Shown here in pieces: positions 20,003 through 42,176 of a stretch of 46,345 nt of DNA. Position 1 is the first letter of the stretch; each line of letters opens with the position of its first letter. The stretch is taken from sequence record LC918680.1; one strand, written 5' to 3'. Position numbers and translations under genes: made by a program. The stretch is from a phage. The notes under the pieces were generated by a model that did not search any database, had not been told where the DNA came from, and saw only the letters and a list, made by a program, of their open reading frames with translations.

Positions 20003-20168
20003 AAAATCTCCTTAGAAGCCGTTAAAGTTTGAGGCAAGCAGCAGAACCCACACTAAGAAACCAGTTACAGAAGCACCCGCAAAAGTTGAAATTAAGTTAG
20101 TAGTTAATCTCTTGTTTAGGTTGTTTCGTTTCGATGTGGTAATCATAAACCATCATTAAGCTTTGTCT

Positions 20169-20858
20169 TTAGCTATTAGTGCTATTTGCAATAAACACAG
20201 CCTTTGCAAAACCGCGAGGAGTTAGGCTGCGGATTACCTTTGTCTTCTTGCTCTTTCCACCTAACTTCTTGTATTGGTCAGAGAATCCATCGTTAACGCC
20301 CACCGGAATCGCCTTAGGCCATTTAAACCCATTACCAAACCAAATGCATGTCTTCTTAGGATATGCGTCTCTTGGCTTTATTAGGTCGCTAAAAAACGGG
20401 TGTAAATCATCTTCCGGCAAATAGCCTCCGTATTCATATGGGTGGAAAGTCTTATTAGGCTTTCTCCAGAGTGATGACAGTACGCTGATTGGATTCTCAA
20501 TCATGTATGGGACTTCGTACTTATTAGCCAAGTTAAAAGCAACTTTACATGTTTCCGCAGCTTCAATCTGGAAGTTATGGTTAACCAGTCGCTTTCGCTC
20601 AAAGTGCCTTGACCCGCTCACGGCTAAATCCGTACACGGCGGGAACGCTAAAATGATATCAGGCTTCACATCAAAGTCGAAGTCGGCATCTATCCAGACA
20701 TTAACGTAGGTGATGTTCTCATGTCCAAATTTTGCATTTAAATCCACGTAACTACCGTGGTCAGACTCATCAAAGTTGAAACAGTAGCACTCGTGACCAG
20801 CCTCAGCCCAATCTTTCACAGCCAGCCCTGAACCATCAAATAAAGACCAAACAACCAT
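20169..20858 (-). CDS. putative DNA methyltransferase with C5-cytosine MTase-like motifs
   Basis: Motif I-like FDGSGL, Pro-Cys FPPCTDLAVSG, ENV-like IENP; start placed at internal ATG 20858 preceded by conserved ACGAGAGAGG leader (track start 20900 has no RBS); unusually short (229 aa). Confidence 0.5.
   Translation of the reverse strand: MVVWSLFDGSGLAVKDWAEAGHECYCFNFDESDHGSYVDLNAKFGHENITYVNVWIDADFDFDVKPDIILAFPPCTDLAVSGSRHFERKRLVNHNFQIEAAETCKVAFNLANKYEVPYMIENPISVLSSLWRKPNKTFHPYEYGGYLPEDDLHPFFSDLIKPRDAYPKKTCIWFGNGFKWPKAIPVGVNDGFSDQYKKLGGKSKKTKVIRSLTPRGFAKAVFIANSTNS
20170..20184 (-). promoter_or_regulatory. boundary motif copy 3
   Basis: - strand TAGCACTAATAGCTA overlapping MTase stop. Confidence 0.5.
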
Positions 20859-20900
20859 TTTGAAATCCTCTCTCGTTTTTTTGTGTGACCAACTATACAT

Positions 20901-21399
20901 GGTTTTGCGGATTAGTTTTAGCTATTCGTGCTGTTGGTTACGCGTAACCGATGTAACTCTATGTATACCATATGCATCAGCGGGAAATCGTATACGCCTA
21001 ATTACGCTTTGATACGCCATAGTTACATTAAAATATATATATATATCAACCTTTTACTCTTATTATTATTATTATATATATTACTGTGTATATCATGTAA
21101 CTACTGTCATGGAGCGTTCCGGTTATAATTTTTATATCATGTGATTTTATACAGTATTTCGCTGCACCTATACCTATGCACCATCCGCTAAAATTGGTAT
21201 ACACGATATACGCACCATTTACATTGAGCTATAGCTGGGCTCAGGCAGTGAAAAACGTAACCAATAGAAATGTCTACACGTAGTTACGGATTTATACGCG
21301 TATACTTGATTAATTAATCGGCGATACCAATTGGACTGTGTGTCTTGCGTGCGGCATCATTAACGCATCGAAAGCAAACAGCCACAGAGAGATAGAGAA
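20901..21399. repeat. control region A: gene-free AT-rich divergent intergenic region, paralogous to region B
   Basis: Shares with region B the blocks TATATATATCAACCTTTTACT, (ATT)n-TATATATA microsatellite and AGCTATAGCTGGGCT...CGTAACCAAT; contains palindromes GGTTACGCGTAACC (20936-20949) and TATACGCGTATA (21293-21304). Confidence 0.7.
20919..20933 (-). promoter_or_regulatory. boundary motif copy 4 (degenerate)
   Basis: - strand CAGCACGAATAGCTA upstream of MTase leader. Confidence 0.4.
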
Positions 21400-21585
21400 A
21401 TGAAAATGCCTGATAAATTAAAAGCGCACACAGTAATACTACCAACGTATTCTCCTGTTGCTATATTCCTTACGCATGACATGGCTGTTAGATTCTGCGA
21501 ATTATCATACGGTAAACAATGGGAGCAAACAGGCGCAAGGATAGAAAAGACAACATCAGAACACATCAAAGTCATTAAGGGATAA
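21400..21585 (+). CDS. hypothetical early protein
   Basis: First + strand ORF after control region A; CATCGAAAGC...AGAGAG leader upstream. Confidence 0.45.
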   Translation: MKMPDKLKAHTVILPTYSPVAIFLTHDMAVRFCELSYGKQWEQTGARIEKTTSEHIKVIKG

Positions 21586-21589
21586 AATC

Positions 21590-21784
21590 ATGCCACACTT
21601 CATAATTAAAGAGAAAAACAACGCACTGTTCGGCGATTGCTACTTTGGTGGCCCAGCCGGATACACTACCAACAAATCTGAAGCCGACCAATTCGAGACA
21701 AAGGAAGAGGCCAAGGAGTTGCTGACAGGATACTTCACTGAAGAAGATTTGAAAGCTATTAAGATTGTTAAAATTAAGGATTGA
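21590..21784 (+). CDS. hypothetical protein
   Basis: 64-aa ORF, closely spaced with neighbours. Confidence 0.5.
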   Translation: MPHFIIKEKNNALFGDCYFGGPAGYTTNKSEADQFETKEEAKELLTGYFTEEDLKAIKIVKIKD

Positions 21785-21787
21785 ACC

Positions 21788-22759
21788 ATGACATTTAAAG
21801 TTTATACGAACGACGAGCTAACAAATGAATCCTATCACGAAGAGCAAGACCATATCTCTGGCTCTTCACTGGCTGAGATTCTTGCTACCTCACCAGCTAA
21901 ATGGAAGTTTAAGCAGCGCAATAACTCTAGCGCAGCACTTAAGTTTGGCACACTAAGTCACTGCATGATGCTAGAGCGCGAGGTGTTTGACTCAACATAC
22001 ATGCGAGCTACTGACTTTGACGAAGTGGAAGGATTGATTACTAGCCAAACGGCTTTATCCGCAGCGCTTAAAAAAGTTGGAGTTTCAGGCACGTCAGGGA
22101 AGGGTTATAACGAGCTTGTAGAGATGATGTATAAGTGTGGTGAGGATTGGCCTGTTAAATGGTTAATTGAGCAGCAGGAGAGCGCTCATGCGCTAATTAG
22201 TGGCAAAGAGCTCGTTACTGCGAAAGATTACGATAAAGTAATTCAAATGCGAGAGGTTCTAACTAATATTCCGGCATATGATTCGGTCATTAATTCACCA
22301 TCAGCGCAGAAAGAACTATCAATATTTGGTGAGATTCTCGGTTGTGGTGTTAAGGTTCGTCTTGACCATGTGGATGTTGTTGATGGTATTGTCTACATTA
22401 CTGACTACAAAACCACAGCAGATGCAAGTCCTAGAGGATTTGGGAAGTCAGCTTATGACCATGGATACCTGTGCAAGATGGCACTTCAGCGAGATCTGTT
22501 TGTGAAAGCCTTTAATGAGAAACGCAAGGTTGTAGTTCGCCTTTTGGCACAGGAGAAAGCAGAGCCTTACTTACCTATGTGCTACACGCTTACGGATGAG
22601 CAGCTTCGCATTGGGCGCTTACAATATTTAGAGGCTCTGGCTGTTTACAAGCAGTGCAAGGAACTTGATGTGTGGCCTGGGTATAGCAATGGGATTACAG
22701 AGCAAGATTTGATGATTCCTGAGTGGGTAAGTAAGCAGTATCAAGAACTTCTAAAATAG
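21788..22759 (+). CDS. PD-(D/E)xK family exonuclease (recombination exonuclease)
   Basis: VRLDHVDVVDGIVYITDYKT gives D...D-x-K nuclease motif; adjacent to Erf-like and SSB genes. Confidence 0.7.
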   Translation: MTFKVYTNDELTNESYHEEQDHISGSSLAEILATSPAKWKFKQRNNSSAALKFGTLSHCMMLEREVFDSTYMRATDFDEVEGLITSQTALSAALKKVGVSGTSGKGYNELVEMMYKCGEDWPVKWLIEQQESAHALISGKELVTAKDYDKVIQMREVLTNIPAYDSVINSPSAQKELSIFGEILGCGVKVRLDHVDVVDGIVYITDYKTTADASPRGFGKSAYDHGYLCKMALQRDLFVKAFNEKRKVVVRLLAQEKAEPYLPMCYTLTDEQLRIGRLQYLEALAVYKQCKELDVWPGYSNGITEQDLMIPEWVSKQYQELLK

Positions 22760-22771
22760 CACTAATTGCTA
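22757..22771 (+). promoter_or_regulatory. boundary motif copy 5
   Basis: TAGCACTAATTGCTA; starts at exonuclease stop TAG. Confidence 0.6.
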
Positions 22772-22829
22772 AAGACAAAATTAACAGGTGGGGTATCATT
22801 ACCCCATCGAAACGAAAGAGAGATGGGGA

Positions 22830-23480
22830 ATGAAAACTTCTGAGCAAAACAAGCAAGTATTGAAGGCGTTATTCGAGGCTAAATCAAAGTTTGCTAAGGC
22901 TGAAAAGTCTAAGCAGAACTCACACCTCAAGAATAAGTACGCTACTTTAGATGATGTTTTAGCAGCTGTAGAGCCAGGCTTGGCTGATAGCGGACTGGTG
23001 ATGTTTCAGTCGATGATTGATGATGATGTAAGCACTCGTATTAAGGTTGAAACAACCATTTATCACGCAGAGTCTGGGGAGTGGGTTAGCTTCCTGACAA
23101 TCGTCCCAATCAGTAAGCAAGATGCTCAAGGTTATGGGTCATCACTTACATACGCTCGCCGTTACGCAATCACAGCGGCGTTAGGTTTAAGCCAGGCAGA
23201 TGATGATGGTCAGCTTGCAGTTAAGGGTATCAACTCATTTAAGAAAGATTTAGCTAAGTGCAACACTCTTGATGACCTGCGCGATGTATACAAAGAAGCT
23301 AAGCAGTCTCTTGATTCAGCTGGTTGGCTGGTGATTGAACCTCACATTATTGAGCGTAAGGCAGAGATTCAGGCTAATGCAACTAACGGCTTCAATCCTG
23401 CAAAACCTAAACAGGTTGCACAAAAGTCTGTTCAAGAAGAAAAAGTTGAAGTACAATCTCAAGAAATCGACACATTCTAA
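22830..23480 (+). CDS. Erf-like single-strand annealing protein
   Basis: ATG 22830 after conserved leader (track start 22788 lies inside the upstream hairpin); sits between exonuclease and SSB; family call from overall resemblance only. Confidence 0.55.
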   Translation: MKTSEQNKQVLKALFEAKSKFAKAEKSKQNSHLKNKYATLDDVLAAVEPGLADSGLVMFQSMIDDDVSTRIKVETTIYHAESGEWVSFLTIVPISKQDAQGYGSSLTYARRYAITAALGLSQADDDGQLAVKGINSFKKDLAKCNTLDDLRDVYKEAKQSLDSAGWLVIEPHIIERKAEIQANATNGFNPAKPKQVAQKSVQEEKVEVQSQEIDTF

Positions 23481-23520
23481 TTTAACGGAGCTGCGGCCCC
23501 AACATTAAGAGAGAAAGAAA

Positions 23521-23952
23521 ATGAGTCATGTAATCACTGGCGTTATCCGTCGCGCTCCGTTCACTAAAGAAGGTCAGAATGCAAATGGCAGTTGGAAGAT
23601 GTACGCGGTTGATTTAAGTGAGCGTTACAAGGATAAAGATGGTCAATCTCAGTATAGCAACTATCGTGCCGTCTTCTTCGCAAAGGAATCAATGCTTACA
23701 TGGTATAACGAAGCGTTTCAGGAAGGGAAGATTGTTAGCGTAAGTTGTGAGACGTTAGCATTAGATGTTCGAGATAAAGATGGCAAGACTTACATAACAA
23801 TTAACATGAATAATCCTCGTCTTGAGTTTAGTCAGCGTGGTGAGGGTGTACAGCAACATAAAAATACAGAGCAACAACAGCGCCATCAACCGCAACAGCA
23901 ACAGCAACAACCACAACAGCAAAACACATTCGACGGAGATATTCCATTCTGA
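23521..23952 (+). CDS. ssb: single-stranded DNA-binding protein
   Basis: OB-fold-like N-region, Gln/Pro-rich linker, acidic tail ending DGDIPF. Confidence 0.8.
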   Translation: MSHVITGVIRRAPFTKEGQNANGSWKMYAVDLSERYKDKDGQSQYSNYRAVFFAKESMLTWYNEAFQEGKIVSVSCETLALDVRDKDGKTYITINMNNPRLEFSQRGEGVQQHKNTEQQQRHQPQQQQQQPQQQNTFDGDIPF

Positions 23953-23960
23953 TAAAAGAT

Positions 23961-23984
23961 AAAGCCCCTTTCGGGGCTTTTTTA
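23961..23984. terminator. bidirectional intrinsic terminator between convergent ssb and tail-fibre genes
   Basis: A-run + GCCCC-TTTC-GGGGC + T-run. Confidence 0.8.
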
Positions 23985-26516
23985 TGCAAGAGAAACTCTT
24001 GAGTTTGCAAATATCAAGGCGTCCCTTTGATTATCAAATTCTACAACAAAATAATCAGCAAGGCTTAATACCATACCAGTTAATCCATTGAGGTTAATGT
24101 TAAGGTTTGCAACGCCAGAAACCGAAGCCTGACCAACTCCAAATGTATGAACCCACTTACCACGCTCAGTAAACACACTGCCTAATGATGCGCTACCAAA
24201 AATGTTTATAATACCATCAGCACCGCCTTGAATCCTGTTTGCAGAAATACCCCAAACATACCATTTTCCGGAAGTTATATTAAAGCGACCATTTATCAAT
24301 TCGTACTGAGCCGCACCATCTAATTCGTAGTATCCAGATGATTGCGAGTGTATACCCCTTGTATCAGAACCTTCCCTTGACGACCCTGTTCCACCAAAGT
24401 CGTTTCCACCAGTACCAAAAGGCCTCCTGACTAAAACAATTCCGGAATCGGGGTTAAAAACTCGACCTTTAGTAACATATCCTCTAACAGATAGGTTTGA
24501 AGTGCCAGTTATCTTGGCTGTCTGTGATACCAGCGACTCAACTATAACGTTTGATGTTGAAGATCCATTCAGGTATGCATCCTTAGCAAAAATAATACTG
24601 TTCGAATCAAGAGAGAAACTTTGGTGCCCATCAGCGTTATCAAACCTGCACCCATAAGTTACAAGGTTTGAATTTGATAACTCAATGTTATTAATATAAG
24701 AATGCTCAGCAAAGAAAACGGACGTATCGATGAGCTTCAAAACCCTTGGGAGTTCAGCTCCCTCACCTACGTTAATTGCTCCCCCAGTTGCTATCGCTTC
24801 AAACCATACGTTAGACAATCCGCAAGGTGATGTTGGGCAATCTCCAGGTTTATTCTTTAACCTTATACCGCCGCCAGCAGAGGCCTCCATTATTGAATCC
24901 CTAATCCACCACCCACCAATTCCTCCAGCAACAGGGTTCGTTGCGCTACTTGTGCTTGTCGCATCTAGCATTACTGAATATTGAGAGATTGTATCTGAGT
25001 GGTATCCGTATAAAGTGTCCGCTCCTATATGCATTTCGTCATGAGCTTTGGCTCGATACCCGTAATTCGCATTTCTAATACTTACGTTTCTGTAGGTATT
25101 TCCAATGTTGCCAGCATTTTTCCTTATACCAACATCCAGGTTATTGAAGTAAAGCCTATCCAATACAACCCTTCCAGCATAAGGGTCATCCGGGAATTGA
25201 AAGCCGTTATTACCTTGTATTGCAGTACCTGTAAACTGCAAATCCGATAAATGCTTTTGCCTCCAGTGCGGAACCGATAGCGTTGAGGTGAGTCCGGTTT
25301 CAAAAGGTTTAACACTTATTACGGTATTATATCCAGAGCCTGATATGTTCCTGCCAGCAAAGGAGTAGTTATTACTCTCATAAGTTCCCGGGCTTATAAC
25401 TACCGACCCGCCATCGCCAGCGGCTTCTATTGCTGAAGATATTGAGCCGCTATAGCTTGATGTGCTTTTTGAATCTGTATTTAAAATTGATGACACCTCA
25501 CCCTTTGAGTAAACATCAAGGTTGGTTCTTGCCACGGACTTATCTGCAATGTCTGAAAGATTCAATGATTTTTGAAACGTCTCGGATTTTGAGTAAACAT
25601 CAAGCAACCCCCTAACCCTTGACGCGCTTGATCCACCAGTTGCAGCATTACCGCCAGGCAAGCTTAGTACTTCCCTTACATAAAAAACCCTAGATCCAGT
25701 CTCACCAGAAATTGTGACATCTGCAATCCTAAAATTTGAGTCTGACCCAGTAGACGGAGATAACCTTAATACATTAGCCGAATTAACACCCCTAGATGCA
25801 ATAACATCAATACAAATAGGAGTTGTTGAAACCGGAAACATTGAACTAATTTCTTTTGGGGTGTTTAACATATTCCTAAGTGTGCACTGATAACGACCTC
25901 CGGAATAAAATTGCATTGTTTGCCAATCTAAAGAGGTAAGTAATGGCGTTGTCGTGCTACCTATTCCGTGATTAGCAAAGTAAGCAACAGCCGCTGTATT
26001 TCCAGCTGCATTTATTGCCTCAACCGTCCTGTTATATGAATTTTGTGCGTTAGTGCTTGCACCAACTGCGGTCGCTGCACTTTCAGCAGCAGCAATCTGA
26101 CTAGCTAACGCCTCCGCAGCTCCGGTAGTTGACTGAGTTGCCAGTTGTTCAAAACGAGGCCAATCAAAAGTATCTTGACCAATAAATTGCAGTAGACTTT
26201 CAATAGAAGTCTCTTTTGACTGGTAGTAACGCAATGTTTCCGCAACATCCTGTGCCAACCCCTGAACAGTAATTCCATCATGAGCAAGAATTGCGTAACC
26301 AGTACCAGCGGGAACAGTTTCAGAACTTGGATTATAAACATTAACCTGAGTATCGCTGATGATTTCAGAGATGGTGTAAATTTTCAGAGGGCTGGTTTTG
26401 AAAATGATAGTAGCACCTACACGAATCAGTGTAAGAGGTGCTTTCCATGTAGTACCTACGCCAGTAACCTCGCCATTTGAGGCTAGTGATGCTGTTCCTA
26501 AGTCATAAATTGCCAT
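23982..26516 (-). CDS. tail fibre/tailspike protein
   Basis: 844-aa ORF, Gly/Ser/Asn/Thr-rich with repetitive beta-rich character; own promoter-like TGGTAGAAT upstream. Confidence 0.7.
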   Translation of the reverse strand: MAIYDLGTASLASNGEVTGVGTTWKAPLTLIRVGATIIFKTSPLKIYTISEIISDTQVNVYNPSSETVPAGTGYAILAHDGITVQGLAQDVAETLRYYQSKETSIESLLQFIGQDTFDWPRFEQLATQSTTGAAEALASQIAAAESAATAVGASTNAQNSYNRTVEAINAAGNTAAVAYFANHGIGSTTTPLLTSLDWQTMQFYSGGRYQCTLRNMLNTPKEISSMFPVSTTPICIDVIASRGVNSANVLRLSPSTGSDSNFRIADVTISGETGSRVFYVREVLSLPGGNAATGGSSASRVRGLLDVYSKSETFQKSLNLSDIADKSVARTNLDVYSKGEVSSILNTDSKSTSSYSGSISSAIEAAGDGGSVVISPGTYESNNYSFAGRNISGSGYNTVISVKPFETGLTSTLSVPHWRQKHLSDLQFTGTAIQGNNGFQFPDDPYAGRVVLDRLYFNNLDVGIRKNAGNIGNTYRNVSIRNANYGYRAKAHDEMHIGADTLYGYHSDTISQYSVMLDATSTSSATNPVAGGIGGWWIRDSIMEASAGGGIRLKNKPGDCPTSPCGLSNVWFEAIATGGAINVGEGAELPRVLKLIDTSVFFAEHSYINNIELSNSNLVTYGCRFDNADGHQSFSLDSNSIIFAKDAYLNGSSTSNVIVESLVSQTAKITGTSNLSVRGYVTKGRVFNPDSGIVLVRRPFGTGGNDFGGTGSSREGSDTRGIHSQSSGYYELDGAAQYELINGRFNITSGKWYVWGISANRIQGGADGIINIFGSASLGSVFTERGKWVHTFGVGQASVSGVANLNINLNGLTGMVLSLADYFVVEFDNQRDALIFANSRVSLA

Positions 26517-26538
26517 TGTAAAGTCTCCATTTGTAAAG

Positions 26539-26553
26539 TAGCACTAATTGCCA
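26539..26553 (+). promoter_or_regulatory. boundary motif copy 6
   Basis: TAGCACTAATTGCCA between tail fibre and primase genes. Confidence 0.45.
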
Positions 26554-26580
26554 AAATTCATTCTACCATCTTTCAGGCAA

Positions 26581-26602
26581 TAAAAAACCTCCCGAAGGAG
26601 GT
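26581..26602 (-). terminator. intrinsic terminator (- strand) after primase
   Basis: Plus-strand AAAAAA + CCTCC-CGAA-GGAGG, i.e. hairpin then U-run on - strand. Confidence 0.7.
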
Positions 26603-27525
26603 TAGTTTAGCAAGTCGTTTGCTTTGTACACTTTCTTTCGTATGCCTGTTTTAAATGACTCACCGTCATTAGGAACTACAACATCAACACCCCTATCGTC
26701 AGCAACAGCGAGTATATCGCTATCAGAATCACGGCAAGCAATTCTGAACTTCCTTGACTTGTCGCGGTGGATAACCATCTCCATATTGTAACAGGAGAAA
26801 GCAACAAACACTTCGCGCCCACCAGTAGCAAGGTGAACACGTATGCCATCAATATAATTGTCAACAACATAAGTATAACTATCATCCTGCTTAGAACCAA
26901 TAACGGAAACAGAATCACGAGTGTAATCACCAGCAAGGAACTTAACATTTGAATCCTCATCAATAAACATTACGTTACAGAACTCATCACTAAGCCCATC
27001 TTCATAAACCATCGAACAAGGGATTGCGTGAATCATTGAACCATTTTTAGCTATACCAACATCAAAACCAAACTCGTCATAAATACCCTCGTATGTCGTG
27101 AGTGGACTAGATTCAACTCGCTGAGTCCTCTCCATGACCTCAAGAACTTTCTTGTGGTCTACTTGAGCGCCCATTTTATAACGCAGCGTTCTTGATGCTT
27201 GCTTGTTAGCTTTAACTATAACCTCAATTGGTGTTAAGTTCAGCCAGTCACCAAGCAAATTTACTGAATCGGCGAAGGACAATCCAGTGCACTTCATGAC
27301 CCACCCTATACCGGAGTCACTTCCGCATTTCGAACAAATTGCCGCGCCATTTCCTTTTTCACTGCCTATTTCGTCGGTAAATCTGAATCTGTCAGTGCCA
27401 AAGCAGTATGGGCATGGTCCGTGCTTCTTACTTAGGTGTCTATCATTCCAACCAAGTTCCTTTGCATAAAATGATTTCCACAATCCGGCCATCTTAGGTA
27501 TAACTTCATTCTTATCGTAATTCAT
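26602..27525 (-). CDS. DNA primase (zinc-binding + Toprim-like)
   Basis: CPYC...CSKC zinc-ribbon near N-terminus, acidic D-rich C-terminal region. Confidence 0.7.
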   Translation of the reverse strand: MNYDKNEVIPKMAGLWKSFYAKELGWNDRHLSKKHGPCPYCFGTDRFRFTDEIGSEKGNGAAICSKCGSDSGIGWVMKCTGLSFADSVNLLGDWLNLTPIEVIVKANKQASRTLRYKMGAQVDHKKVLEVMERTQRVESSPLTTYEGIYDEFGFDVGIAKNGSMIHAIPCSMVYEDGLSDEFCNVMFIDEDSNVKFLAGDYTRDSVSVIGSKQDDSYTYVVDNYIDGIRVHLATGGREVFVAFSCYNMEMVIHRDKSRKFRIACRDSDSDILAVADDRGVDVVVPNDGESFKTGIRKKVYKANDLLN

Positions 27526-27881
27526 TTGCTTAAACCGTGATTTTCGTGAAAGTTGTATTTTCTCTCTGCTTCAATTCTTACTTTATACGCCTGCTCTGGA
27601 GTATCTAAGTTACCAAGGTGTAGCTGCTTGCCGTCAACCTTGATGTAAGCCTTAAATTTTCCGTGATTTAGCTTTGCCACTCCACAATAACCAGTTGTTG
27701 ATAAAACGCTAAGCTTGCAATTTCTTGAGTTACCTTGATTTGTTGTTACTCTTAGGTTTTCTATTCTGTTATCTAATTTGTTATGGTTTATATGATCAAT
27801 GTAGTCGCCATTTTGAAGTTCTCCATTAAACATCTCCCACACAACTCTATGTACATAAGTCCTAAAGCCATTAACAGACAC
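27522..27881 (-). CDS. HNH homing endonuclease with AP2-type DNA-binding domain
   Basis: HNH motif DHINHNKLDNRIENLRVTT followed by AP2-like GYCGV...FKAYI segment. Confidence 0.8.
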   Translation of the reverse strand: MSVNGFRTYVHRVVWEMFNGELQNGDYIDHINHNKLDNRIENLRVTTNQGNSRNCKLSVLSTTGYCGVAKLNHGKFKAYIKVDGKQLHLGNLDTPEQAYKVRIEAERKYNFHENHGLSK

Positions 27882-28052
27882 TTTGTAATAGCCAGATGTA
27901 GATAGTGAGTTGCACTCATCGCCAACCTTAACACGTCTTGCAGTGCTAATCTTTCAATGCAATTTGCCATCTACATAGTAAAAATAATCATGCCAGTTCA
28001 TTTTCTTCTCCCCAATAAAAAGGGATGTACCGATTATGGCACATCCAATTAT

Positions 28053-28526
28053 TTAATCTTTAGCTTTTCGTGCTGCTTCGTTGGCAATCTTATTCTTGCG
28101 CCATGGTCGACATGGTGGCTTTGTTGCTAGTTCAGCTTCGGTAACAACCCGCAGCATATGGCGTTTCTTGCATCTAAGCGTTAATGGCTTACCGTTTCCG
28201 TCGAATTGCAGGTCTGGTCGGCAGAACGTAGCTCTAAAGCCTTCCTTATTTCGCTTGTATGCATTGTGAGCCCTCTGGGCACCTCGAGCCGAAATCATCC
28301 CGCGATCAAACCATTGCTCTACAGTCTGGTGAGATACATTTAACTGCTTGGCGATATTGGCCTTCGTGCCGTAGAAATCAAGAACCATCTCCAGACGAGC
28401 TCGTAGCCCAGCCTTTACTTCATCTTTCAATACGTAGTAGCCTGACGGTCGTTTGCGCTGTTTCTTGTCTTGCGTGCGGATGGTTCCGTTATTGCCGTTG
28501 ATAGTTCGCTTGTCAATTTCACACAT
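28053..28526 (-). CDS. basic HTH DNA-binding protein
   Basis: HTH-like IAKQLNVSHQTVEQWF; highly basic termini. Confidence 0.45.
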   Translation of the reverse strand: MCEIDKRTINGNNGTIRTQDKKQRKRPSGYYVLKDEVKAGLRARLEMVLDFYGTKANIAKQLNVSHQTVEQWFDRGMISARGAQRAHNAYKRNKEGFRATFCRPDLQFDGNGKPLTLRCKKRHMLRVVTEAELATKPPCRPWRKNKIANEAARKAKD

Positions 28527-28539
28527 CTCATTACCTCAA

Positions 28540-37407: not shown

Positions 37408-38991
37408 TTACCCCAGCAATAGTGGATTAATGTAAATTTTATCACCAATCAGGCATGTGTAGTTTTTCTCATCAAGCATAGGAATCAAGTGGTCCTTAAT
37501 GCGAGTCATAATTCCAGCCTGAGCTTCAAAAGGTTTAACCTTGCGTGCAGCCTCATACAACGAGCGAACACCAACAACACCTTTACCATTCTTGCCCTGC
37601 TTAATCAGGATATCAACCAGCTTGTTCATCTCGGCATTGTCACCAGCATGACCAGCAGCACTAGCGGATGATAAATAAGTCTTGCTTAGTTCGTTGAAAA
37701 TCATAACCGCTTCCTGCATTGTATCCAGTTCAATCTCTCTTGACTTTTGAGGGCTGGATCCGGCTGGTGAGAACCAGTTACGAATTACGTGCAGAACAGA
37801 AGCGATGCGGATTGCTTGCTTATCAAACTTACCAAGAGCACCGCGCAACATTGTGTGAGAATACTTGCCACCATCACCAAGATGAGGCTCCATCTCTTGA
37901 CGAGCGCGGTTAAGGTAACGCATTGATGACGCGCTTACAGTAAGTTTCACTTCAACTTCATTCATAATCTCATGAACAAGACGGAAATAGTCTGCTTTCA
38001 GGCCGTCATCAATAGCCTCATAGGTTGAATCACCATTTTCATCAACAAATACACGTTCGCCAAGAAATGATTTTTCACGCACCAGAAGGAAACGCTCAGA
38101 TACACCAATACCACGCGCACCAGCATTCATAATGGCATTGATTGTTTCATCCTGAGCAATTACGGAGATGCATCCCATAGCCACAAAGCTCATGTTATTT
38201 TCTGCGTTCGCACGGGCAATTGACACATTACCTGCATCCCATGCTTTCAGCACGAGCTCGCTGTTCGTTTTCTTCGAGCCATCACCGTAAGTCATGCCTA
38301 ACAGTGAGTTGACGCTAGTAGCCTCATCAGAGATTACCGCAAAATTACCCTGGCGATTGTTGATTCGCGCAAGACCTTCCGGAGTAGTATCGGAGACAGG
38401 GAATACTATATCGCATAGCTTCTCGAGCTTCTCCTCTAAATCCTCCTTCTCCTCAAAAAGTGAAGCCATTTCAGAAGGTGATTTCTCCTGCTTCATCTCT
38501 TTAGCCAGAGCGGACAGTTTAGCCATAATCTTTTTTCGATCACGTTTACGTACTTCATTCAACCGCTCAGTCTCAGCAATCATCGGCGCAATTGATAGCG
38601 AGTTAATGGCTGATTTACCAGTTGAAGGCGGCTGACTTGTTACCACGTACAAAGATGTTGGCTGTTGGGTTCCATGATACTCGACAGTAAAACGCCCAAG
38701 CATTGCAGCAGAAACACAACCAAGAAAGTGCATGTAAACTGACGACTCAGGGAACTGAACCGAGCGAGCGATATTAGCCGATAGCTTACCAACAACATCA
38801 ATATCATTACCGAGTGAGATTACTGGATACTTATCATTACCTGTATCAATCTCGACAGGTGCTTTCCAGAACGATTGAGAATGTCGATAGCCATTGGCAT
38901 TAATAGCCACGCGAAGCGGTGGTAGGTTTTCATTGGCAGCGATTGCCATAACCTGCTCAACAGATAGTTTATCTTCGTTGAAATCAAACAT
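37408..38991 (-). CDS. P-loop NTPase (DUF3987-like), putative replication-associated ATPase
   Basis: Walker A SQPPSTGKS and Walker B-like AVISDEAT; 527 aa; boundary motif and conserved leader upstream. Confidence 0.55.
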   Translation of the reverse strand: MFDFNEDKLSVEQVMAIAANENLPPLRVAINANGYRHSQSFWKAPVEIDTGNDKYPVISLGNDIDVVGKLSANIARSVQFPESSVYMHFLGCVSAAMLGRFTVEYHGTQQPTSLYVVTSQPPSTGKSAINSLSIAPMIAETERLNEVRKRDRKKIMAKLSALAKEMKQEKSPSEMASLFEEKEDLEEKLEKLCDIVFPVSDTTPEGLARINNRQGNFAVISDEATSVNSLLGMTYGDGSKKTNSELVLKAWDAGNVSIARANAENNMSFVAMGCISVIAQDETINAIMNAGARGIGVSERFLLVREKSFLGERVFVDENGDSTYEAIDDGLKADYFRLVHEIMNEVEVKLTVSASSMRYLNRARQEMEPHLGDGGKYSHTMLRGALGKFDKQAIRIASVLHVIRNWFSPAGSSPQKSREIELDTMQEAVMIFNELSKTYLSSASAAGHAGDNAEMNKLVDILIKQGKNGKGVVGVRSLYEAARKVKPFEAQAGIMTRIKDHLIPMLDEKNYTCLIGDKIYINPLLLG

Positions 38992-39048
38992 TACTTCTCT
39001 CCGTGTTGTTATGAGCGGCCATTATATCAATAGCCGCTTATAATGCAT

Positions 39049-39063
39049 TATCAATTAGTGCTA
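39049..39063 (-). promoter_or_regulatory. boundary motif copy 11
   Basis: - strand TAGCACTAATTGATA upstream of DUF3987-like gene. Confidence 0.5.
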
Positions 39064-39221
39064 TTTAGTAAGATGCAATCTATCTTGTAGTAGTCAAAGT
39101 GATTTTCTGAAGATATTTCTTTGTTATATTTAAACTCCTGTGCTTTGAATTCTTCATCGAAAGCGGCAATCACTTCGCTTCCATCATAGTGTGTGCAACC
39201 ACTTACAATGTATAATTTCAT
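39051..39221 (-). CDS. hypothetical small protein
   Basis: 56-aa ORF, start overlaps upstream stop (ATGA); C-terminus LNSTN encoded by boundary motif; below track cutoff. Confidence 0.4.
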   Translation of the reverse strand: MKLYIVSGCTHYDGSEVIAAFDEEFKAQEFKYNKEISSENHFDYYKIDCILLNSTN

Positions 39222-39607
39222 TTGTATTGAGCCTCAAAGTGGTAAGTTTCACACAACGTATAAAAGCCAACATCTTCGCTGCGATATAGCTGCCAGGCGT
39301 TGCCATCTTCATCGTAAATGTATCCAGCTGACTGACCAAGTCCGCTATGCATGTTGACCTGGTATCGCTTACCTTCTTTGAAGTCTTTCTTAACGCCAGA
39401 CTTATGGTTAACCTTTGTGCAGTAAAGAGTTTTGGTTTTAATGTATTTTCCACGTTCTTCCAGGTTGATCCATTTGCCGTCTTTTTTGATTTGCTCAAAT
39501 TCAACTTCCTCAGCGACACCGTTAACCCACTGGTGAATCTTTTTAACGCGAGCTTTAAATAGCTTGTTGTCGTTGCTAATGAAATTTTTGGTTATCGTAG
39601 TAGTCAT
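39218..39607 (-). CDS. hypothetical protein
   Basis: 129-aa Lys-rich ORF. Confidence 0.5.
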   Translation of the reverse strand: MTTTITKNFISNDNKLFKARVKKIHQWVNGVAEEVEFEQIKKDGKWINLEERGKYIKTKTLYCTKVNHKSGVKKDFKEGKRYQVNMHSGLGQSAGYIYDEDGNAWQLYRSEDVGFYTLCETYHFEAQYK

Positions 39608-39768
39608 TATTTTAATCTCTTAGTTGTCAACATGAATTTGTTTGGTACTGATTTGCGCACAATACGCACAACAATCTTATCAAACTTCTGAACTAAACCG
39701 TAAATCTTACCATCTAGCGACGCCCTGAGAACCGCCTCTTCCATCTCGTCATAAAAGTTGTCGAACAT
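39607..39768 (-). CDS. hypothetical small protein
   Basis: Start placed at ATG 39768 after conserved CATCGAAACGAAAGAGAG leader (track start 39834 is TTG within the motif). Confidence 0.4.
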   Translation of the reverse strand: MFDNFYDEMEEAVLRASLDGKIYGLVQKFDKIVVRIVRKSVPNKFMLTTKRLK

Positions 39769-39827
39769 GATCTCTTGCTCTCTTTCGTTTCGATGGAGTA
39801 AATATACGCCATCCGTGGCGGTGAGTT

Positions 39828-39992
39828 TTAGCAATTAGTGCTATTTTTTCTGGCCTTCTCAATTGCCTTCAACATAATCTCGTGAGACTCAAGCAGGTCC
39901 TCGTTAAACCAGTCCCCGCAAGGCCAACCCTTTCCGCTGTAAGCACTTATGACTTCCAGATCGAAATAGTTTATCTCAGATGGTAAAAGCAT
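39828..39992 (-). CDS. hypothetical small protein
   Basis: 54-aa ORF; C-terminus KNSTNC encoded by boundary motif; start overlaps upstream stop; below track cutoff. Confidence 0.4.
   Translation of the reverse strand: MLLPSEINYFDLEVISAYSGKGWPCGDWFNEDLLESHEIMLKAIEKARKNSTNC
39829..39843 (-). promoter_or_regulatory. boundary motif copy 12
   Basis: - strand TAGCACTAATTGCTA perfect 6-3-6. Confidence 0.6.
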
Positions 39993-40195: not shown

Positions 40196-40380
40196 TTTAC
40201 TACCTCAAACTCTCCAGGGTGGATAACTAATGGCTTGGCTTTACCATCCATTATTACAACAGTTCCATTTTCGTGTTCCATGAATACCTCGTAAACACCT
40301 CCAGGTTCAAGGCCGTAGAATTCGTATTCGTCATCGTCAAACCCATCTGTCTTACTTAGCGCTATTATTTTTACCTTCAC
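40192..40380 (-). CDS. hypothetical protein
   Basis: GTG 40380 with SD GAGGAGG 5 nt upstream (track TTG start 40422 lacks RBS); first - strand gene leaving control region B. Confidence 0.5.
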   Translation of the reverse strand: MKVKIIALSKTDGFDDDEYEFYGLEPGGVYEVFMEHENGTVVIMDGKAKPLVIHPGEFEVVK

Positions 40381-40436
40381 ATATCCCTCCTCGTTGTTGA
40401 TGAGCGAACTATAACTCCGCAATACCTAAATGTCTT

Positions 40437-40450
40437 TAGCAAAAAGTGCT
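40437..40450 (-). promoter_or_regulatory. boundary motif copy 13 (spacer variant)
   Basis: - strand TAGCACTTTTGCTA at edge of control region B. Confidence 0.4.
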
Positions 40451-41870: not shown

Positions 41871-41885
41871 TAGCACAAATTGTTA
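41871..41885 (+). promoter_or_regulatory. boundary motif copy 15
   Basis: TAGCACAAATTGTTA. Confidence 0.5.
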
Positions 41886-41945
41886 AACCTTCCGCAAGGC
41901 CATTTGATATAGTGGCCTTATTAAAGCAAAGCAAGAGAGGGTGGG

Positions 41946-42176
41946 ATGGATAGGAACAAATATGAAAGAGAGATTACTGGGCTTAATGGCGAGCGTGCTA
42001 TTGTTGATGTGTATCGCACGCTATCAGCGTTCAACGTTACAGACCCAGCATGTCAGCATGCAATCAAAAAGCTGCTCTGCATGGGTTTACGAGGTCACAA
42101 GGATGTTATCACAGACCTTGATGACGCAATAGACTCACTGAACAAGATGAAAACTTACCTGGAACAAACTAAATGA
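41946..42176 (+). CDS. hypothetical protein
   Basis: 76-aa ORF after boundary motif; preferred over overlapping 41941 frame (GTG start). Confidence 0.45.
   Translation: MDRNKYEREITGLNGERAIVDVYRTLSAFNVTDPACQHAIKKLLCMGLRGHKDVITDLDDAIDSLNKMKTYLEQTK

What the first reader, a model, noticed from the sequence alone, without database searches (positions are those of the whole stretch)
20170..39843. Four unrelated proteins share a C-terminal NSTN(C/S) tail because their stop codons lie inside the boundary motif
The MTase-like protein ends FIANSTNS, the kinase ends AINSTNC, and two small - strand ORFs (39828-39992 and 39051-39221) end KNSTNC and LNSTN. Each is encoded by AAT AGC ACN AAT (T/A)GC TAA, which is the motif itself. 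Other genes end with AAA TAG, the TAG being the first three motif bases. A non-coding element is therefore imposed on coding ends, which fits the motif acting as a recombination or regulatory joint at cassette borders.
Basis: seen in the sequence. Interest (0 to 1): 0.55.

Follow-up and report, generated by a model that had tools for sequence, protein, structure and literature searches.

The report
Promoter motif overlaps gene ends
Four unrelated proteins of this T1-like E. coli phage share an NSTN(C/S) tail only because their genes run into a repeated promoter element, and that element matches the binding site (marbox) of the host stress regulators MarA/SoxS/Rob, placed as in host promoters those regulators activate.

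Summary
The window is a Drexlerviridae (Braunvirinae, Rtp/T1-like) coliphage. TAGCAC-N3-TTGCTAAA occurs 17 times, and 15 copies head one co-oriented module: motif, 19-21 nt, a TAnnnT -10, a short CATCGAAACGA-type leader, RBS, start codon. The motif has TAG in one frame and TAA in another. Of 100 modules with an upstream ORF in eight genomes, 40 end on the TAG, 20 on the TAA (NSTNC-type tail) and 19 within 6 nt upstream. Orthologues of all four tail-bearing proteins that lack a downstream motif lack the tail, so the tail is a DNA-level by-product.

The motif is not a special recombination joint: homology breakpoints are no commoner at module junctions than at other gene junctions. It is the upstream part of a sigma-70-type promoter cassette with a weak -35 and a stem-loop within the spacer or bracketing the -10, much like T4-type PeSLs. 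It matches the E. coli marbox at every specified position, forward, with micF's 20-nt gap to the -10, centred near -40. It is asymmetric. The phage's only HTH regulator is Cro-like with a variable recognition helix.

Whether MarA/SoxS/Rob really act here is inferred (about 0.45). I found no published description.

The parts
1618..1692 (+). Promoter module: motif TAGCACGTTTTGCTAAA 1618-1634 (exact marbox), -10 TATAGT 1656-1661, inferred TSS ~1668, ATG 1690. It follows the terminase large-subunit gene, whose stop is the motif's TAG.
   Evidence: the orthologous site in AN_ECEAS is at 46536
8782..8850 (+). Promoter module in the structural region: motif 8782-8798 (exact marbox), -10 TATAGT 8819-8824, leader CATCGAAACGA. 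It is preceded by a terminator hairpin.
20135..20184 (-). Promoter module: motif 20168-20184 (TAGCACTAATAGCTAAA, 1 mismatch to the marbox), -10 TATGAT 20142-20147. The MTase gene (20169-20858/20900, -) ends inside it: ..ANSTNS, stop TAA 20169-20171.
20858..20933 (-). Promoter module upstream of the MTase gene: motif CAGCACGAATAGCTAAA 20917-20933, -10 TATAGT 20892-20897, RBS, ATG at 20858. Together with the 20168-20184 module it brackets the MTase cassette, which the closest relative AN_ECEAS lacks.
22757..22832 (+). Promoter module: motif 22757-22773 (exact marbox), -10 TATCAT 22794-22799 inside the stem GGTGGGGTA/TACCCCATC, leader CATCGAAACGAAA. The exonuclease gene 21788-22759 stops on the motif's TAG. 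The recombinase gene lies downstream.
26539..26555 (+). Orphan motif (exact marbox, no -10 at the expected distance). It is reversed relative to the flanking minus-strand genes and lies between the primase terminator and the lateral tail-fibre gene RBS. It is conserved in relatives and in T1 (34905).
28540..28625 (+). Promoter module for the helicase gene in the divergent region: motif TAGCATTTTTTGTTAAA 28540-28556 (exact marbox), -10 TATTAT 28576-28581. The same motif lies 13 nt upstream of the ATG (28526) of the minus-strand Cro-like regulator gene, downstream of that gene's own canonical promoter (TTGTTA-16-TATAAT, 28604-28577).
29946..30050 (+). Module inside the intein/LAGLIDADG insertion of the helicase gene: motif TAGCATTTATTGCTAAT 29946-29962, -10 TATATT 29984-29989. 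It lies upstream of ORF 30048-31757.
32176..32247 (+). Promoter module: motif 32176-32192 (exact marbox), -10 TATTGT 32213-32218 bracketed by the stem GGTGAGTTG/CAACTCATC. The VRR-NUC gene 31759-32178 stops on the motif's TAG.
33245..33261 (-). Orphan motif copy (TAGCACAAATTGCTAAT) on the minus strand inside plus-strand ORF 33045-33296. No -10 follows it.
35599..35675 (+). Promoter module: motif 35599-35615 (exact marbox), spacer hairpin GCCGGAgtaaTCCGGC, -10 CATAAT 35636-35641. The dNMP-kinase-like ATPase 35060-35614 ends inside it (..AINSTNC, TAA 35612-35614).
38989..39063 (-). Promoter module for the DUF3987 helicase (37408-38991): motif TAGCACTAATTGATAAT 39047-39063, -10 TATAAT 39021-39026 in the loop of AGCGGC/GCCGCT. 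The DUF7336 ORF 39051-39221 ends inside it (..LLNSTN, TGA).
39766..39843 (-). Promoter module: motif 39827-39843 (exact marbox), -10 TATATT 39801-39806, leader CATCGAAACGAAA. ORF 39828-39992 (PHROG 4548) ends inside it (..RKNSTNC).
40380..40451 (-). Promoter module: motif TAGCACTTTTTGCTAAA 40435-40451 (exact marbox), -10 TATAGT 40408-40413.
41871..41948 (+). Promoter module: motif TAGCACAAATTGTTAAA 41871-41887 (exact marbox), -10 TATAGT 41908-41913 overlapped by the stem AAGGCCA/TGGCCTT.
42726..42799 (+). Promoter module: motif 42726-42742 (exact marbox), -10 TATACT 42763-42768 in the loop of TGGGATA/TATCCCA. The upstream ORF 42581-42724 stops at a TAA abutting the motif.
44141..44216 (+). Promoter module: motif 44141-44157 (exact marbox), -10 TATAAT 44178-44183. 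ORF 43922-44143 stops on the motif's TAG.
28053..28526 (-). Candidate phage-encoded reader (rival hypothesis): a 157-aa single-HTH Cro/cI-type regulator, PHROG 2856, a core gene of the family.

Best explanation
The motif is the upstream, activator-site part (about -49 to -33) of a repeated promoter cassette read by host sigma-70 RNA polymerase, used by the whole T1 family (Drexlerviridae).

Each cassette runs as follows: [AA]TA-GCACnWWTTGYTAAA; 19-21 nt (20 in 10 of the 15 window modules) that usually carry one arm of a short stem-loop; a TAnnnT -10, often with a TGn extension; a discriminator that forms the other arm; then a short CATCGAAACGA-type leader, RBS and start codon. There is no good -35.

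The genome is tightly packed and the motif contains TAG in frame 0 and TAA in frame 2, so upstream genes simply run into it. Frame 0 ends ..K*. Frame 2 acquires the tail N-S-T-N-C. Frame 1 genes stop just before it. The tail is therefore a by-product with no implied protein function.

The stem-loop most likely attenuates read-through from the upstream gene, as was shown for the equivalent stem-loops of T4-type PeSL cassettes. Each gene block would then depend on its own promoter.

The 15-mer inside the motif equals the E. coli marbox in the forward, class II position. The most likely reader is therefore a monomeric MarA/SoxS/Rob-type host activator that contacts alpha-CTD and sigma region 4 in place of a -35 contact.

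Shown: the repetition, architecture, rigid spacing and asymmetry of the motif; its match to the marbox; the geometry shared with micF; and that the tails track the motif.

Inferred: promoter activity and the transcription start sites (probability about 0.9); attenuator function of the stems (about 0.5); and that MarA/SoxS/Rob are the physiological readers (about 0.45).
For: - **Repetition and architecture.** The motif occurs 17 times in the window, and 15 copies have the full co-oriented module. There are 14-20 modules per genome in AN_ECEAS, SU57, phiA2-1, TR2, T1, a 51-kb contig and Vibrio phage Vc1. SU57's annotators placed BPROM sigma-70 promoters at the equivalent places.
- **Stop-codon statistics.** Over 116 modules, 40 upstream ORFs stop on the motif's TAG, 20 on its TAA, and 19 within 6 nt upstream. 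Tail peptides vary with the motif variant.
- **Tails absent without the motif.** ATPase homologues at >=59% identity end (I/V)NSTNC-like, while those at <=55% identity end otherwise. In L010 and T1 the ATPase/dNMP-kinase orthologue ends on the TAG instead. In the MTase family the conserved end ..AN is followed by variable tails, and only motif-adjacent copies have STN(C/S). The same holds for PHROG 4548 and DUF7336 homologues.
- **Marbox match.** The published consensus forms are GCAnnWWnTGnnAAA and GCAHWWWWTGYYAAA. Class II sites are forward, overlap the -35 and are centred at -36..-55, about -41 at micF. The window has 12 exact matches against 0.89 expected, and 17 at <=1 mismatch against 1.96 expected. 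E. coli micF has GCACTGAATGTCAAA, then 20 nt, then TAGAAT, centred at -41. The phage gap is 20 nt in 10 of 15 modules and 19 or 21 in the rest. The site at 1618 differs from the marRAB marbox at 1 of 15 bases.
- **Asymmetry under a symmetric seed.** Mismatches fall 29 distal against 99 proximal (p=4e-10). Positions 6 and 10 are complementary in 1 of 161 modules. The trailing AA is conserved in 152 and 138 of 161 modules, although it worsens the -35.
- **No phage MarA-like protein.** Pfam and PHROG scans of the ORFs tested find none. The one HTH regulator has a Cro/cI fold, and its recognition helix is its least conserved part even though the motif is invariant.
- **Stems.** Arm-to-arm duplex energies are -10.0, -9.8 and -9.3 in three subfamilies, against -5.8, -5.1 and -4.7 for chimeras (0 of 1000 permutations each). 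[quoted passage not shown]
Against: - No transcription start site, binding or expression data exist for these sites. I found none in the literature.
- Vibrio phage Vc1 keeps the same modules, and its recorded host is V. cholerae. I could not verify whether that host has marbox-binding proteins.
- The motif is more constrained than the marbox needs. T1, A2 and the upstream A-run are conserved, and the motif has partial dyad symmetry.
- The phage does encode a conserved Cro-like regulator. That gene has a canonical promoter, and a reversed motif copy lies in the DNA of its 5' leader, which looks like autoregulation.
- Many modules have near-consensus or extended -10 elements, so they might fire without any activator.
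- The stems are not maintained in a fixed register. A compensatory-change count was no better than its control, and the stem signal is weak in SU57 and TR2.
Confidence: 0.8

Rival explanations
1. The motif is the operator of the phage's own conserved Cro/cI-type regulator (28053-28526, minus strand). The regulator would bind as a dimer to the dyad TAGCA-N5-TGCTA centred at -42 and activate through sigma region 4, as lambda cI does at P_RM. It would also repress its own gene and the lateral tail-fibre gene through the reversed copies.
For: - The 5+5 dyad has half-site centres 10 bp apart.
- The regulator is a core family gene that co-occurs with the motif in 831 phage records, including Vibrio phage Vc1.
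- Its gene has a canonical marbox-free promoter, TTGTTA-16-TATAAT.
- A reversed motif lies 13 nt before its ATG, in both the window and T1.
- T1 and A2 of the motif are conserved beyond what the marbox requires.
Against: - The site is strongly asymmetric and orientation-locked. Mismatches at symmetry partners 3/13 are 4 against 57, and at 5/11 are 0 against 23. Positions 6/10 are complementary in 1 of 161 modules. The flanks are AAA on both sides, not TTT/AAA.
- The recognition helix is the least conserved segment of the protein. It reads HQTVEQW, PQTVEEW, NQAVSEW, NQTVQGW and CVRLTNA in phages that share an identical motif.
- A perfect match to an 18-bit host consensus, at the exact micF spacing, would have to be coincidence.
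Confidence: 0.2
2. The motif is primarily a recombination joint. Repeated about 70-bp cassettes at gene borders would serve as sites of homologous exchange that shuffle gene cassettes, as in PeSL-mediated modular shuffling.
For: - The MTase cassette is bracketed by two modules and is absent from the closest relative.
- Twenty of 132 homology edges fall inside modules against 3.5 expected at random positions.
- One isolated copy of the module occurs in an unrelated ~150-kb Phapecoctavirus.
- The phage encodes its own exonuclease and recombinase.
- There is precedent in T4-type phages.
Against: - Against the proper control there is no enrichment. Module-bearing junctions carry an edge in 10 of 16 cases and module-free junctions in 25 of 62 (p=0.16). 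In the non-structural half the figures are 8 of 14 and 19 of 41 (p=0.55).
- The rigid spacing to a -10, the fixed orientation with the downstream gene and the position-specific conservation are promoter properties that recombination does not require.
Confidence: 0.1
3. The motif is read directly by RNA polymerase or by another promoter-recognition system, with no separate activator. Candidates are a UP-like or curved upstream element for alpha-CTD, a sigma-54-type -24/-12 promoter, or a T4 MotA-box-like element read by an unidentified small phage protein.
For: - The motif is invariant across subfamilies and also occurs in a phage recorded on Vibrio, which favours a very conserved reader such as RNAP.
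- A-runs flank the motif on both sides.
- TAGCAC-N3-TTGC superficially resembles sigma-54's TGGCAC-N5-TTGC, and TTGCTAAA resembles the MotA box (comparisons from my own knowledge).
Against: - Sigma-54: the motif has AG in place of the near-invariant GG, the spacing is 2 nt too short, and a sigma-70-type -10 sits at a fixed distance downstream.
- UP elements are A/T tracts, whereas the strongest positions here are G, C, A and G.
- A MotA box is centred near -30, not -37, and none of the phage ORFs scanned against Pfam or PHROGs matched MotA or AsiA.
Confidence: 0.1
4. The NSTN(C/S) tail is selected at the protein level, for example as a shared degradation, localisation or interaction tag, and the DNA repeat is secondary.
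For: The tail is kept in all close orthologues of the ATPase and of PHROG 4548.
Against: - Orthologues without a downstream motif lack the tail in all four families, even at 89% identity (L018).
- T1 and L010 orthologues of the ATPase use the same motif in another frame and end ..K*.
- Tail sequence changes with motif variants: NSTNR, NSTFC, NSINC, YSTKS.
- Twice as many genes use the TAG frame, which adds no tail.
- The motif also occurs where no gene ends (8782, 28540).
Confidence: 0.02

Closest known systems
Class II MarA/SoxS/Rob (marbox/soxbox) promoters of E. coli, e.g. micF
   Same: They share the 15-mer consensus GCAnnWWnTGnnAAA / GCAHWWWWTGYYAAA and the forward orientation. The site overlaps a non-optimal -35. 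The gap from the box to the -10 hexamer is 20 nt, putting the centre at about -40/-41. The site is asymmetric, as expected for a monomer with two HTH motifs.
   Different: Here the sites are on a virulent phage genome, at 12-20 promoters per 45-50 kb, far denser than chance (12 exact against 0.89 expected). They are more uniform than host marboxes, with extra conserved T, A and an A-run upstream. They are embedded in a cassette with a stem-loop and a conserved leader. Binding and activation are untested, and one family member is recorded on V. cholerae.
PeSL (promoter-early stem-loop) cassettes of T4-type phages (Arbiol et al. 2010, PMC2839356; Comeau et al. 2014, PMC4122927)
   Same: Both are repeated intergenic composite elements. 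Each begins at the stop codon of the upstream gene, then has a sigma-70-type promoter, a stem-loop placed between the -35 and -10 or overlapping the -10, then a Shine-Dalgarno sequence and start codon. Both flank small accessory genes (searches compared).
   Different: PeSLs have a consensus -35 with an AT-rich upstream region and no transcription-factor site. Here the -35 is poor and a marbox takes its place. PeSL recombination was demonstrated, whereas here breakpoints are not enriched over other gene junctions. Here the motif itself supplies the stop codons and so writes a fixed peptide tail.
Lambda cI at P_RM (class II activation by a phage repressor bound at O_R2, centred at -42)
   Same: A roughly 15-17-bp site centred near -42 touches the -35 region. 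The phage encodes a Cro/cI-fold protein, and a motif copy is placed where it could autoregulate that protein's gene.
   Different: The site is asymmetric and the regulator's recognition helix is not conserved with it. The phage is virulent, and the site heads most promoters of the genome rather than one switch.
Mycobacteriophage L5-type 'stoperators' and cluster K start-associated sequences (from my own knowledge; not checked here)
   Same: These are short asymmetric regulatory sites repeated many times, oriented with transcription, lying in tiny intergenic gaps and often overlapping stop or start codons.
   Different: Stoperators bind the phage repressor and silence transcription in lysogens, and they are not promoters. 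Here the element is part of a promoter in a virulent phage.

Membership tests
Class II marbox (MarA/SoxS/Rob-dependent) promoter | Marbox sequence GCAnnWWnTGnnAAA (or GCAHWWWWTGYYAAA) | tested here: met
   The window has 12 exact matches against 0.89 expected, and 17 at <=1 mismatch to the stricter form against 1.96 expected. The marbox is exact and in register in 109 of 161 modules collected with a seed that did not require WW or AAA.
Class II marbox (MarA/SoxS/Rob-dependent) promoter | Forward orientation, overlapping the -35, centred between -36 and -55 (about -41) | tested here: met
   All 15 window modules have GCAC distal and AAA proximal to the -10. The centre is about -40 relative to a TSS inferred 7 nt after the -10. 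The TSS is inferred, not measured.
Class II marbox (MarA/SoxS/Rob-dependent) promoter | Same box-to-(-10) spacing as a validated class II promoter | tested here: met
   E. coli K-12 micF has 20 nt between the marbox and TAGAAT. The phage modules have 20 nt in 10 of 15 cases, 19 in 2 and 21 in 3.
Class II marbox (MarA/SoxS/Rob-dependent) promoter | Non-optimal -35 hexamer | tested here: met
   The -35 region reads AAAGAC, AAACAA or AAAACT. The consensus scan picks up only AAGACA-type partial matches.
Class II marbox (MarA/SoxS/Rob-dependent) promoter | Asymmetric site, as for a monomeric two-HTH protein | tested here: met
   With a symmetric seed, mismatches fall 29 in the distal half against 99 in the proximal half (p=4e-10). 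The centre and flanks are not self-complementary.
Class II marbox (MarA/SoxS/Rob-dependent) promoter | Bound and activated by MarA, SoxS or Rob | not testable with these tools
   No binding or expression data were found. It needs EMSA, in vitro transcription and mutant hosts.
Class II marbox (MarA/SoxS/Rob-dependent) promoter | Every host of motif-bearing phages has a marbox-binding activator | not tested
   Vibrio phage Vc1 (recorded host V. cholerae) carries the modules. The MarA-family content of that host could not be checked here.
PeSL-type promoter/stem-loop cassette | Repeated intergenic unit of upstream stop codon, sigma-70-type promoter, stem-loop in the spacer or over the -10, then SD and start codon | tested here: met
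   Architecture. Stems: real against chimera energies -10.0 vs -5.8, -9.8 vs -5.1 and -9.3 vs -4.7, with 0 of 1000 permutations reaching the real value. PeSL definition.
PeSL-type promoter/stem-loop cassette | Consensus -35 with an AT-rich upstream region | tested here: not met
   The -35 is poor and the upstream region is the G/C-containing marbox motif.
PeSL-type promoter/stem-loop cassette | Cassettes are preferred sites of indels and recombination | tested here: inconclusive
   Breakpoints are enriched against random positions but not against other gene junctions. The MTase cassette is bracketed by modules.
PeSL-type promoter/stem-loop cassette | The stem-loop terminates or attenuates upstream transcription | not testable with these tools
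   No U-tract follows the stems, and PeSL stems also act without one. It needs reporter assays.
Operator of a Cro/cI-type phage regulator | A cognate single-HTH dimeric regulator is encoded by the phage | tested here: met
Operator of a Cro/cI-type phage regulator | Two-fold symmetric operator | tested here: not met
   Only 4 of 5 dyad pairs are conserved. There is strong half-site asymmetry and the centre and flanks are non-complementary.
Operator of a Cro/cI-type phage regulator | The recognition helix is conserved together with the operator | tested here: not met
   Helix 3 is the least conserved segment (2.3 bits against 3.4-3.5) and differs among phages with an identical motif.
Sigma-54 (-24/-12) promoter | TGGCAC-N5-TTGC with a near-invariant GG and fixed spacing (from my own knowledge) | tested here: not met
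   All copies read TAGCAC-N3-TTGC, with AG instead of GG and 2 nt less spacing. A sigma-70-type -10 follows at a fixed distance.

The most novel reading that the evidence does not exclude
Most promoters of the classic T1 phage family are class II marbox promoters. These virulent phages would wire their gene expression to the host's MarA/SoxS/Rob stress-response activators. Rob is constitutively abundant and is activated by bile salts; MarA and SoxS are induced by antibiotics, phenolics and oxidants (these properties are from my own knowledge). Alternatively, hundreds of replicated marbox copies could titrate those activators away from the host's resistance regulon. Either way, phage development and the host's multidrug-resistance circuitry would be directly coupled.
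Probability: 0.4. Interest if true: 0.8.

Novelty: new variant of a known kind. Interest (0 to 1): 0.55.

Why it matters
The shared tail itself is ordinary. It is a reminder that conserved C-terminal peptides in compact phage genomes can be written by overlapping regulatory DNA, so they should not be read as protein motifs or used to infer homology.

The motif behind it matters more. The transcription programme of T1-like phages is essentially uncharacterised, even though T1 is among the oldest model phages and a notorious laboratory and fermentation contaminant. This analysis gives a precise, family-wide promoter model: motif, spacing, -10, stem-loop and leader. That model can improve annotation, since published genomes list only 4-20 generic sigma-70 predictions.

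It also yields a sharply testable hypothesis: these promoters carry consensus marboxes in the class II position. If MarA/SoxS/Rob act there, phage susceptibility would be linked to the host's antibiotic- and stress-response state. That is relevant to phage-antibiotic combinations and to controlling T1 contamination.

Tried and rejected
- **Recombination joint.** The apparent enrichment against random positions disappears against other gene junctions.
- **Lrp site.** My recalled consensus YAGHAWATTWTDCTR matches only 11 of 15 positions, with the central positions mismatched. I dropped it in favour of the complete marbox match.
- **Sigma-54 promoter and T4 MotA box.** Wrong invariant bases, spacing or position.
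- **Sigma-70 -35 inside the motif.** TTGCTA would need a 22-nt spacer, which is too long.
- **Known RNA family.** Rfam finds only a tRNA at 45139-45211.
- **Fixed-register covariation of the stems.** Changed cells still pair in 36% of cases, no better than the slid control. Orthologous promoters often swap to a different stem register, and the loose pattern also admitted spurious sites. Only register-independent tests support the stems.
- **Distribution test to separate regulator from host factor.** Uninformative, because the regulator is a core gene that co-occurs with the motif everywhere.
- **Scan of viral contigs for the motif.** Dominated by single chance hits.
- **rV5-like/Phapecoctavirus hit.** Only one isolated module, not a promoter family there.
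- **Literature.** No paper in the library holds the motif strings, and I found none linking marboxes to phage promoters (only titles and abstracts of the 'marbox' + 'bacteriophage' hits were read) or giving TSS or transcriptome data for Drexlerviridae. The T1 genome paper (PMID 14972552) is not held, so I cannot exclude that it mentions a conserved promoter sequence.
- **My own error.** I first wrote the spacer as N4; the motif is TAGCAC-N3-TTGCTA (corrected).

Full report
**1. What the window is.** A 20-kb query from the window matches Drexlerviridae/Braunvirinae (Rtp/T1-like) coliphages. The best matches are AN_ECEAS and ES at 92% identity. The window holds the structural genes up to about 19 kb, followed by recombination, replication, lysis and many small early-type genes.

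**2.
- The 18-mer AATAGCACNAATWGCTAA occurs 7 times against 0.00 expected. The 13-mer core at <=1 mismatch occurs 12 times against 0.56 expected.
The MTase-like ORF is a short C5-cytosine methyltransferase (PHROG 757) whose real start is probably 20858 (MVVWSLFDG), as in its homologues. The 'kinase' is a dNMP-kinase-like ATPase (PHROG 139). The small ORFs belong to PHROG 4548 and DUF7336.
- Three other genes end AAA-TAG on the first three motif bases: 21788-22759, 31759-32178 and 43922-44143.

**3. The motif is the head of a longer module.**
- Allowing the centre to vary (TAGCA-N5-TGCTA, <=1 mismatch) gives 17 relevant sites. One further match, at 4528, differs at a core base (TGGTA instead of TGCTA), lies a few nucleotides inside a predicted coding region and was set aside.
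- Fifteen of the 17 share one architecture, always co-oriented with the downstream gene: [AA]TAGCAC-N3-TTGYTAAA; 19-21 nt (20 in 10 of 15); a TAnnnT hexamer that follows sigma-70 -10 rules (A2 and T6 invariant, T1 less so); about 6 nt; often CATCGAAACGA; then an RBS and start codon.
- The generic scan finds at most AAGACA-type partial -35 hexamers right after the motif.
- Two copies are orphans without a -10: 26539 (+) and 33247 (-).
- The same modules occur 14-18 times per genome at syntenic places in AN_ECEAS, SU57, phiA2-1 and TR2. A different 51-kb lineage has 13 in 12 kb. T1 itself has about 20. Vibrio phage Vc1 also carries them.
- SU57's annotators independently placed BPROM sigma-70 promoters at the equivalent positions.

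**4. Why proteins get the tail.**
- Read as AAA|TAG CAC NAA TTG CTA A.., frame 0 stops at TAG, frame 2 reads N-S-T-N-C then TAA, and frame 1 is open.
- Over 116 modules in eight genomes, 100 have an upstream ORF. Of these, 40 stop on the TAG, 20 on the TAA (tail), 19 within 6 nt upstream, 13 further upstream and 8 elsewhere.
- Tail peptides follow the motif variant: NSTNC, NSTNS, NSTNR, NSINC, YSTKS and others, and NSTFC in an ATPase homologue.

- **ATPase.** All 22 homologues at >=59% identity end (I/V)NSTNC or a one-base variant. All at <=55% identity end otherwise. One such homologue (L009) is followed by a terminator and no motif. In L010 and T1 the ATPase/dNMP-kinase orthologue ends ..K* on the motif's TAG, so the same element is used in another frame.
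- **MTase.** The family's conserved end is ..PRGFAxAVxxAN, followed by a hypervariable tail. Only the window and its three closest relatives continue STN(C/S), and the DNA of one relative (MG065688) shows the motif there. An unrelated phage with ..YEANHV has none.
- **PHROG 4548.** Motif-adjacent copies end ..R(K)NSTNC. L018 (89% identical) and L015 have no motif and end ..KNINGEHK and ..KEKKK.
- **DUF7336.** The L016 homologue has no motif and ends ..EVKVAI.
- In other subfamilies even the regulator protein ends in STNC, NSTNS or DSTDC.
- Conclusion: the tail is a DNA-level by-product.

**5. Not a special recombination joint.** Homology edges against four relatives fall inside modules 20 times out of 132, against 3.5 expected for random positions. 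But mosaic breakpoints sit at gene borders anyway. Module-bearing junctions have an edge in 10 of 16 cases and module-free junctions in 25 of 62 (Fisher p=0.16). In the non-structural half the figures are 8/14 and 19/41 (p=0.55). A secondary role in shuffling cannot be excluded. The MTase cassette is bracketed by two modules, and one isolated module sits in a Phapecoctavirus.

**6. The motif equals the host marbox in the class II position.**
- Published marbox consensus forms are GCAnnWWnTGnnAAA (PMC12052159) and GCAHWWWWTGYYAAA, bound by monomeric MarA in a defined orientation (PMC6900184).
- Class II promoters carry the box forward, overlapping a non-optimal -35, centred at about -41 at micF. 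The activator contacts alpha-CTD and sigma-70 region 4 and occludes the -35 contact (PMC8811837 and PMC9638938).
- The phage motif TA-GCACnAATTGCTAAA matches every specified position. The window has 12 exact matches against 0.89 expected, and 17 at <=1 mismatch to the stricter form against 1.96 expected.
- I fetched E. coli K-12 micF. Its box GCACTGAATGTCAAA is centred at -41 from the annotated +1 and is followed by 20 nt and TAGAAT. The phage gap is also 20 nt.
- The marRAB marbox (CCACGTTTTGCTAAA, reverse strand) differs from the window's site at 1618 by one base.
- To avoid circularity I re-collected modules with a symmetric dyad seed plus the -10, giving 161 unique modules. Mismatches fall 29 in the distal half against 99 in the proximal half (p=4e-10). 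Symmetry partners 3/13 carry 4 against 57. Unconstrained positions 6 (C, 147/161) and 10 (T, 139/161) are complementary once in 161. The two A's after the dyad are conserved in 152 and 138 of 161, although T there would improve the -35, and the mirror positions are also A. The exact marbox appears in register in 109 of 161.
- The variable positions (5 and 11 of the marbox) are 'n' or 'Y' in the consensus.

**7. Who reads it?**
- None of the phage ORFs scanned against Pfam or PHROGs matched an AraC/MarA-type domain.
- It remains a serious rival. A dimer centred at -42 is the lambda cI/P_RM geometry. Its gene has a canonical marbox-free promoter. A reversed motif lies 13 nt before its ATG in both the window and T1.
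- Against it stand the asymmetry above and the fact that its recognition helix is its least conserved segment (2.3 bits per residue against 3.4-3.5). The helix differs among phages with an identical motif: HQTVEQW, PQTVEEW, NQAVSEW, NQTVQGW and CVRLTNA.
- A caution for the host-factor model: Vibrio phage Vc1, recorded on V. cholerae, keeps the modules, and I could not check that host's MarA-family content.
- My estimates: MarA/SoxS/Rob-type host activators about 0.45, the phage regulator about 0.2, and direct RNAP reading or an unidentified factor for the rest.

**8. The stem-loop.**
- Most modules carry an inverted repeat. The right arm is the discriminator/TSS region (-6..+3, ending in the CATC of the leader). 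The left arm lies in the spacer, in varying register. Some modules instead have a hairpin wholly within the spacer.
- Mean MFE of 119 modules is -7.1, against -5.0 +/- 0.17 for chimeras that pair the arms of different modules.
- Arm-to-arm duplex energies are -10.0 against -5.8 (window), -9.8 against -5.1 (T1) and -9.3 against -4.7 (L010), with 0 of 1000 permutations reaching the real value in each. The effect is weaker in SU57 and TR2.
- At the promoter after the VRR-NUC gene, close relatives show double changes that keep pairing (GGTGAGTTG/CAACTCATC, GATGAAGTG/CACTTCATC, GGTGGGGTG/CACCTCATC). More distant relatives use another register.
- A fixed-register count is no better than its control.
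- The stem lies upstream of the inferred TSS, so it can act only as DNA or in read-through RNA.
[quoted passage not shown] Its stem-loop attenuates upstream transcription in reporter assays (PMC2839356; PMC4122927). I adopt that function as the likeliest here (about 0.5).

**9. Comparison and novelty.**
- The cassette works like a PeSL whose -35 has been replaced by a class II marbox. It fails the PeSL features 'consensus -35' and 'recombination hot-spot'. It meets every sequence and geometry feature of a class II marbox promoter, while the defining biochemical feature is untested.
- I found no description of the motif. The motif strings are absent from the paper library. I found no paper linking marboxes to phage promoters, judging the hits for 'marbox' plus 'bacteriophage' by title and abstract only. 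The two T1-like genome papers I could read list only generic sigma-70 predictions. The 2004 T1 genome paper could not be read.
- Verdict: the shared tail is real but ordinary. The element causing it is a new variant of known kinds and yields a clear, cheap experimental test.

Noticed in passing
window 28623-31757: The replicative helicase gene is one 1995-nt ORF in SU57, phiA2-1 and TR2. Here it is split into three ORFs in different frames: 28623-29432 (ResIII N-terminus plus an intein splicing/HINT domain), 29261-30115 (LAGLIDADG endonuclease) and 30048-31757. This looks like an intein or homing-endonuclease insertion, possibly degenerate. A promoter module (29946) sits inside it, upstream of the C-terminal part. 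L009 has an intact 890-aa helicase with Hom_end domains.
   Followed up: partly
window 40452-41053: A ~600-bp non-coding gap, also unannotated in AN_ECEAS, contains several copies of an ATTGCAAT-type palindrome (40470-40570) and a very AT-rich (TATTAT)n stretch (40730-40870). It looks like a replication origin (iterons plus an unwinding element) or another regulatory hub.
   Followed up: partly
window 40984-41011 and 28577-28604 (minus strand): These are two conventional, marbox-free sigma-70 promoters. TTGATA-16-TACCAT (with TG) precedes the DUF7174 gene at 41054. TTGTTA-16-TATAAT precedes the Cro-like regulator gene. They are candidates for activator-independent immediate-early promoters.
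   Followed up: partly
window 26539-26555; T1 (L141) 34905: An orphan motif copy is conserved across the family. It is reversed relative to the flanking genes and lies between the primase terminator and the lateral tail-fibre gene, just downstream of a -10-like hexamer (TAGAAT in the window, TAAAAT in T1). It is placed where a bound protein would repress rather than activate.
   Followed up: partly
L140 (Escherichia phage tuntematon, Phapecoctavirus) 20012; also Ro121c4YLVW, O157 typing phage 14, Mangalyan: A single near-identical copy of the whole module (about 78-83% identity over ~81-86 nt, including the motif, the -10 and the leader) occurs in unrelated 130-150-kb myoviruses. This suggests horizontal transfer of the promoter cassette.
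   Followed up: partly
alignment A1 (regulator homologues P0271, P0292, P0299, P0304, P0322, P0328, P0334-P0342): In other Drexlerviridae subfamilies the Cro-like regulator itself ends in motif-type tails (..STNC, ..NSTNS, ..DSTDC). So the same by-product recurs on different proteins in different lineages.
   Followed up: no
window 20169-20900 (minus strand): The C5-cytosine methyltransferase cassette is bracketed by two promoter modules. It is absent from the closest relatives AN_ECEAS and ES, which carry other genes there. The same MTase with the same tail is present in MG065688. The longest ORF over-calls the start by 14 codons.
   Followed up: partly
window 45139-45211: A tRNA gene (Rfam RF00005, 58.9 bits), presumably the tRNA-Arg annotated in relatives.
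   Followed up: no
L142 (Vibrio phage Vc1, MT360682): A Drexlerviridae member recorded on Vibrio cholerae has the same marbox modules and the same regulator, with 44.7% GC.
   Followed up: partly
P0032 (ATPase homologue, 16.8-kb contig): A distant ATPase homologue (51% identity) ends ..NPNSTMS, which hints at a related but different motif variant in another lineage.
   Followed up: no
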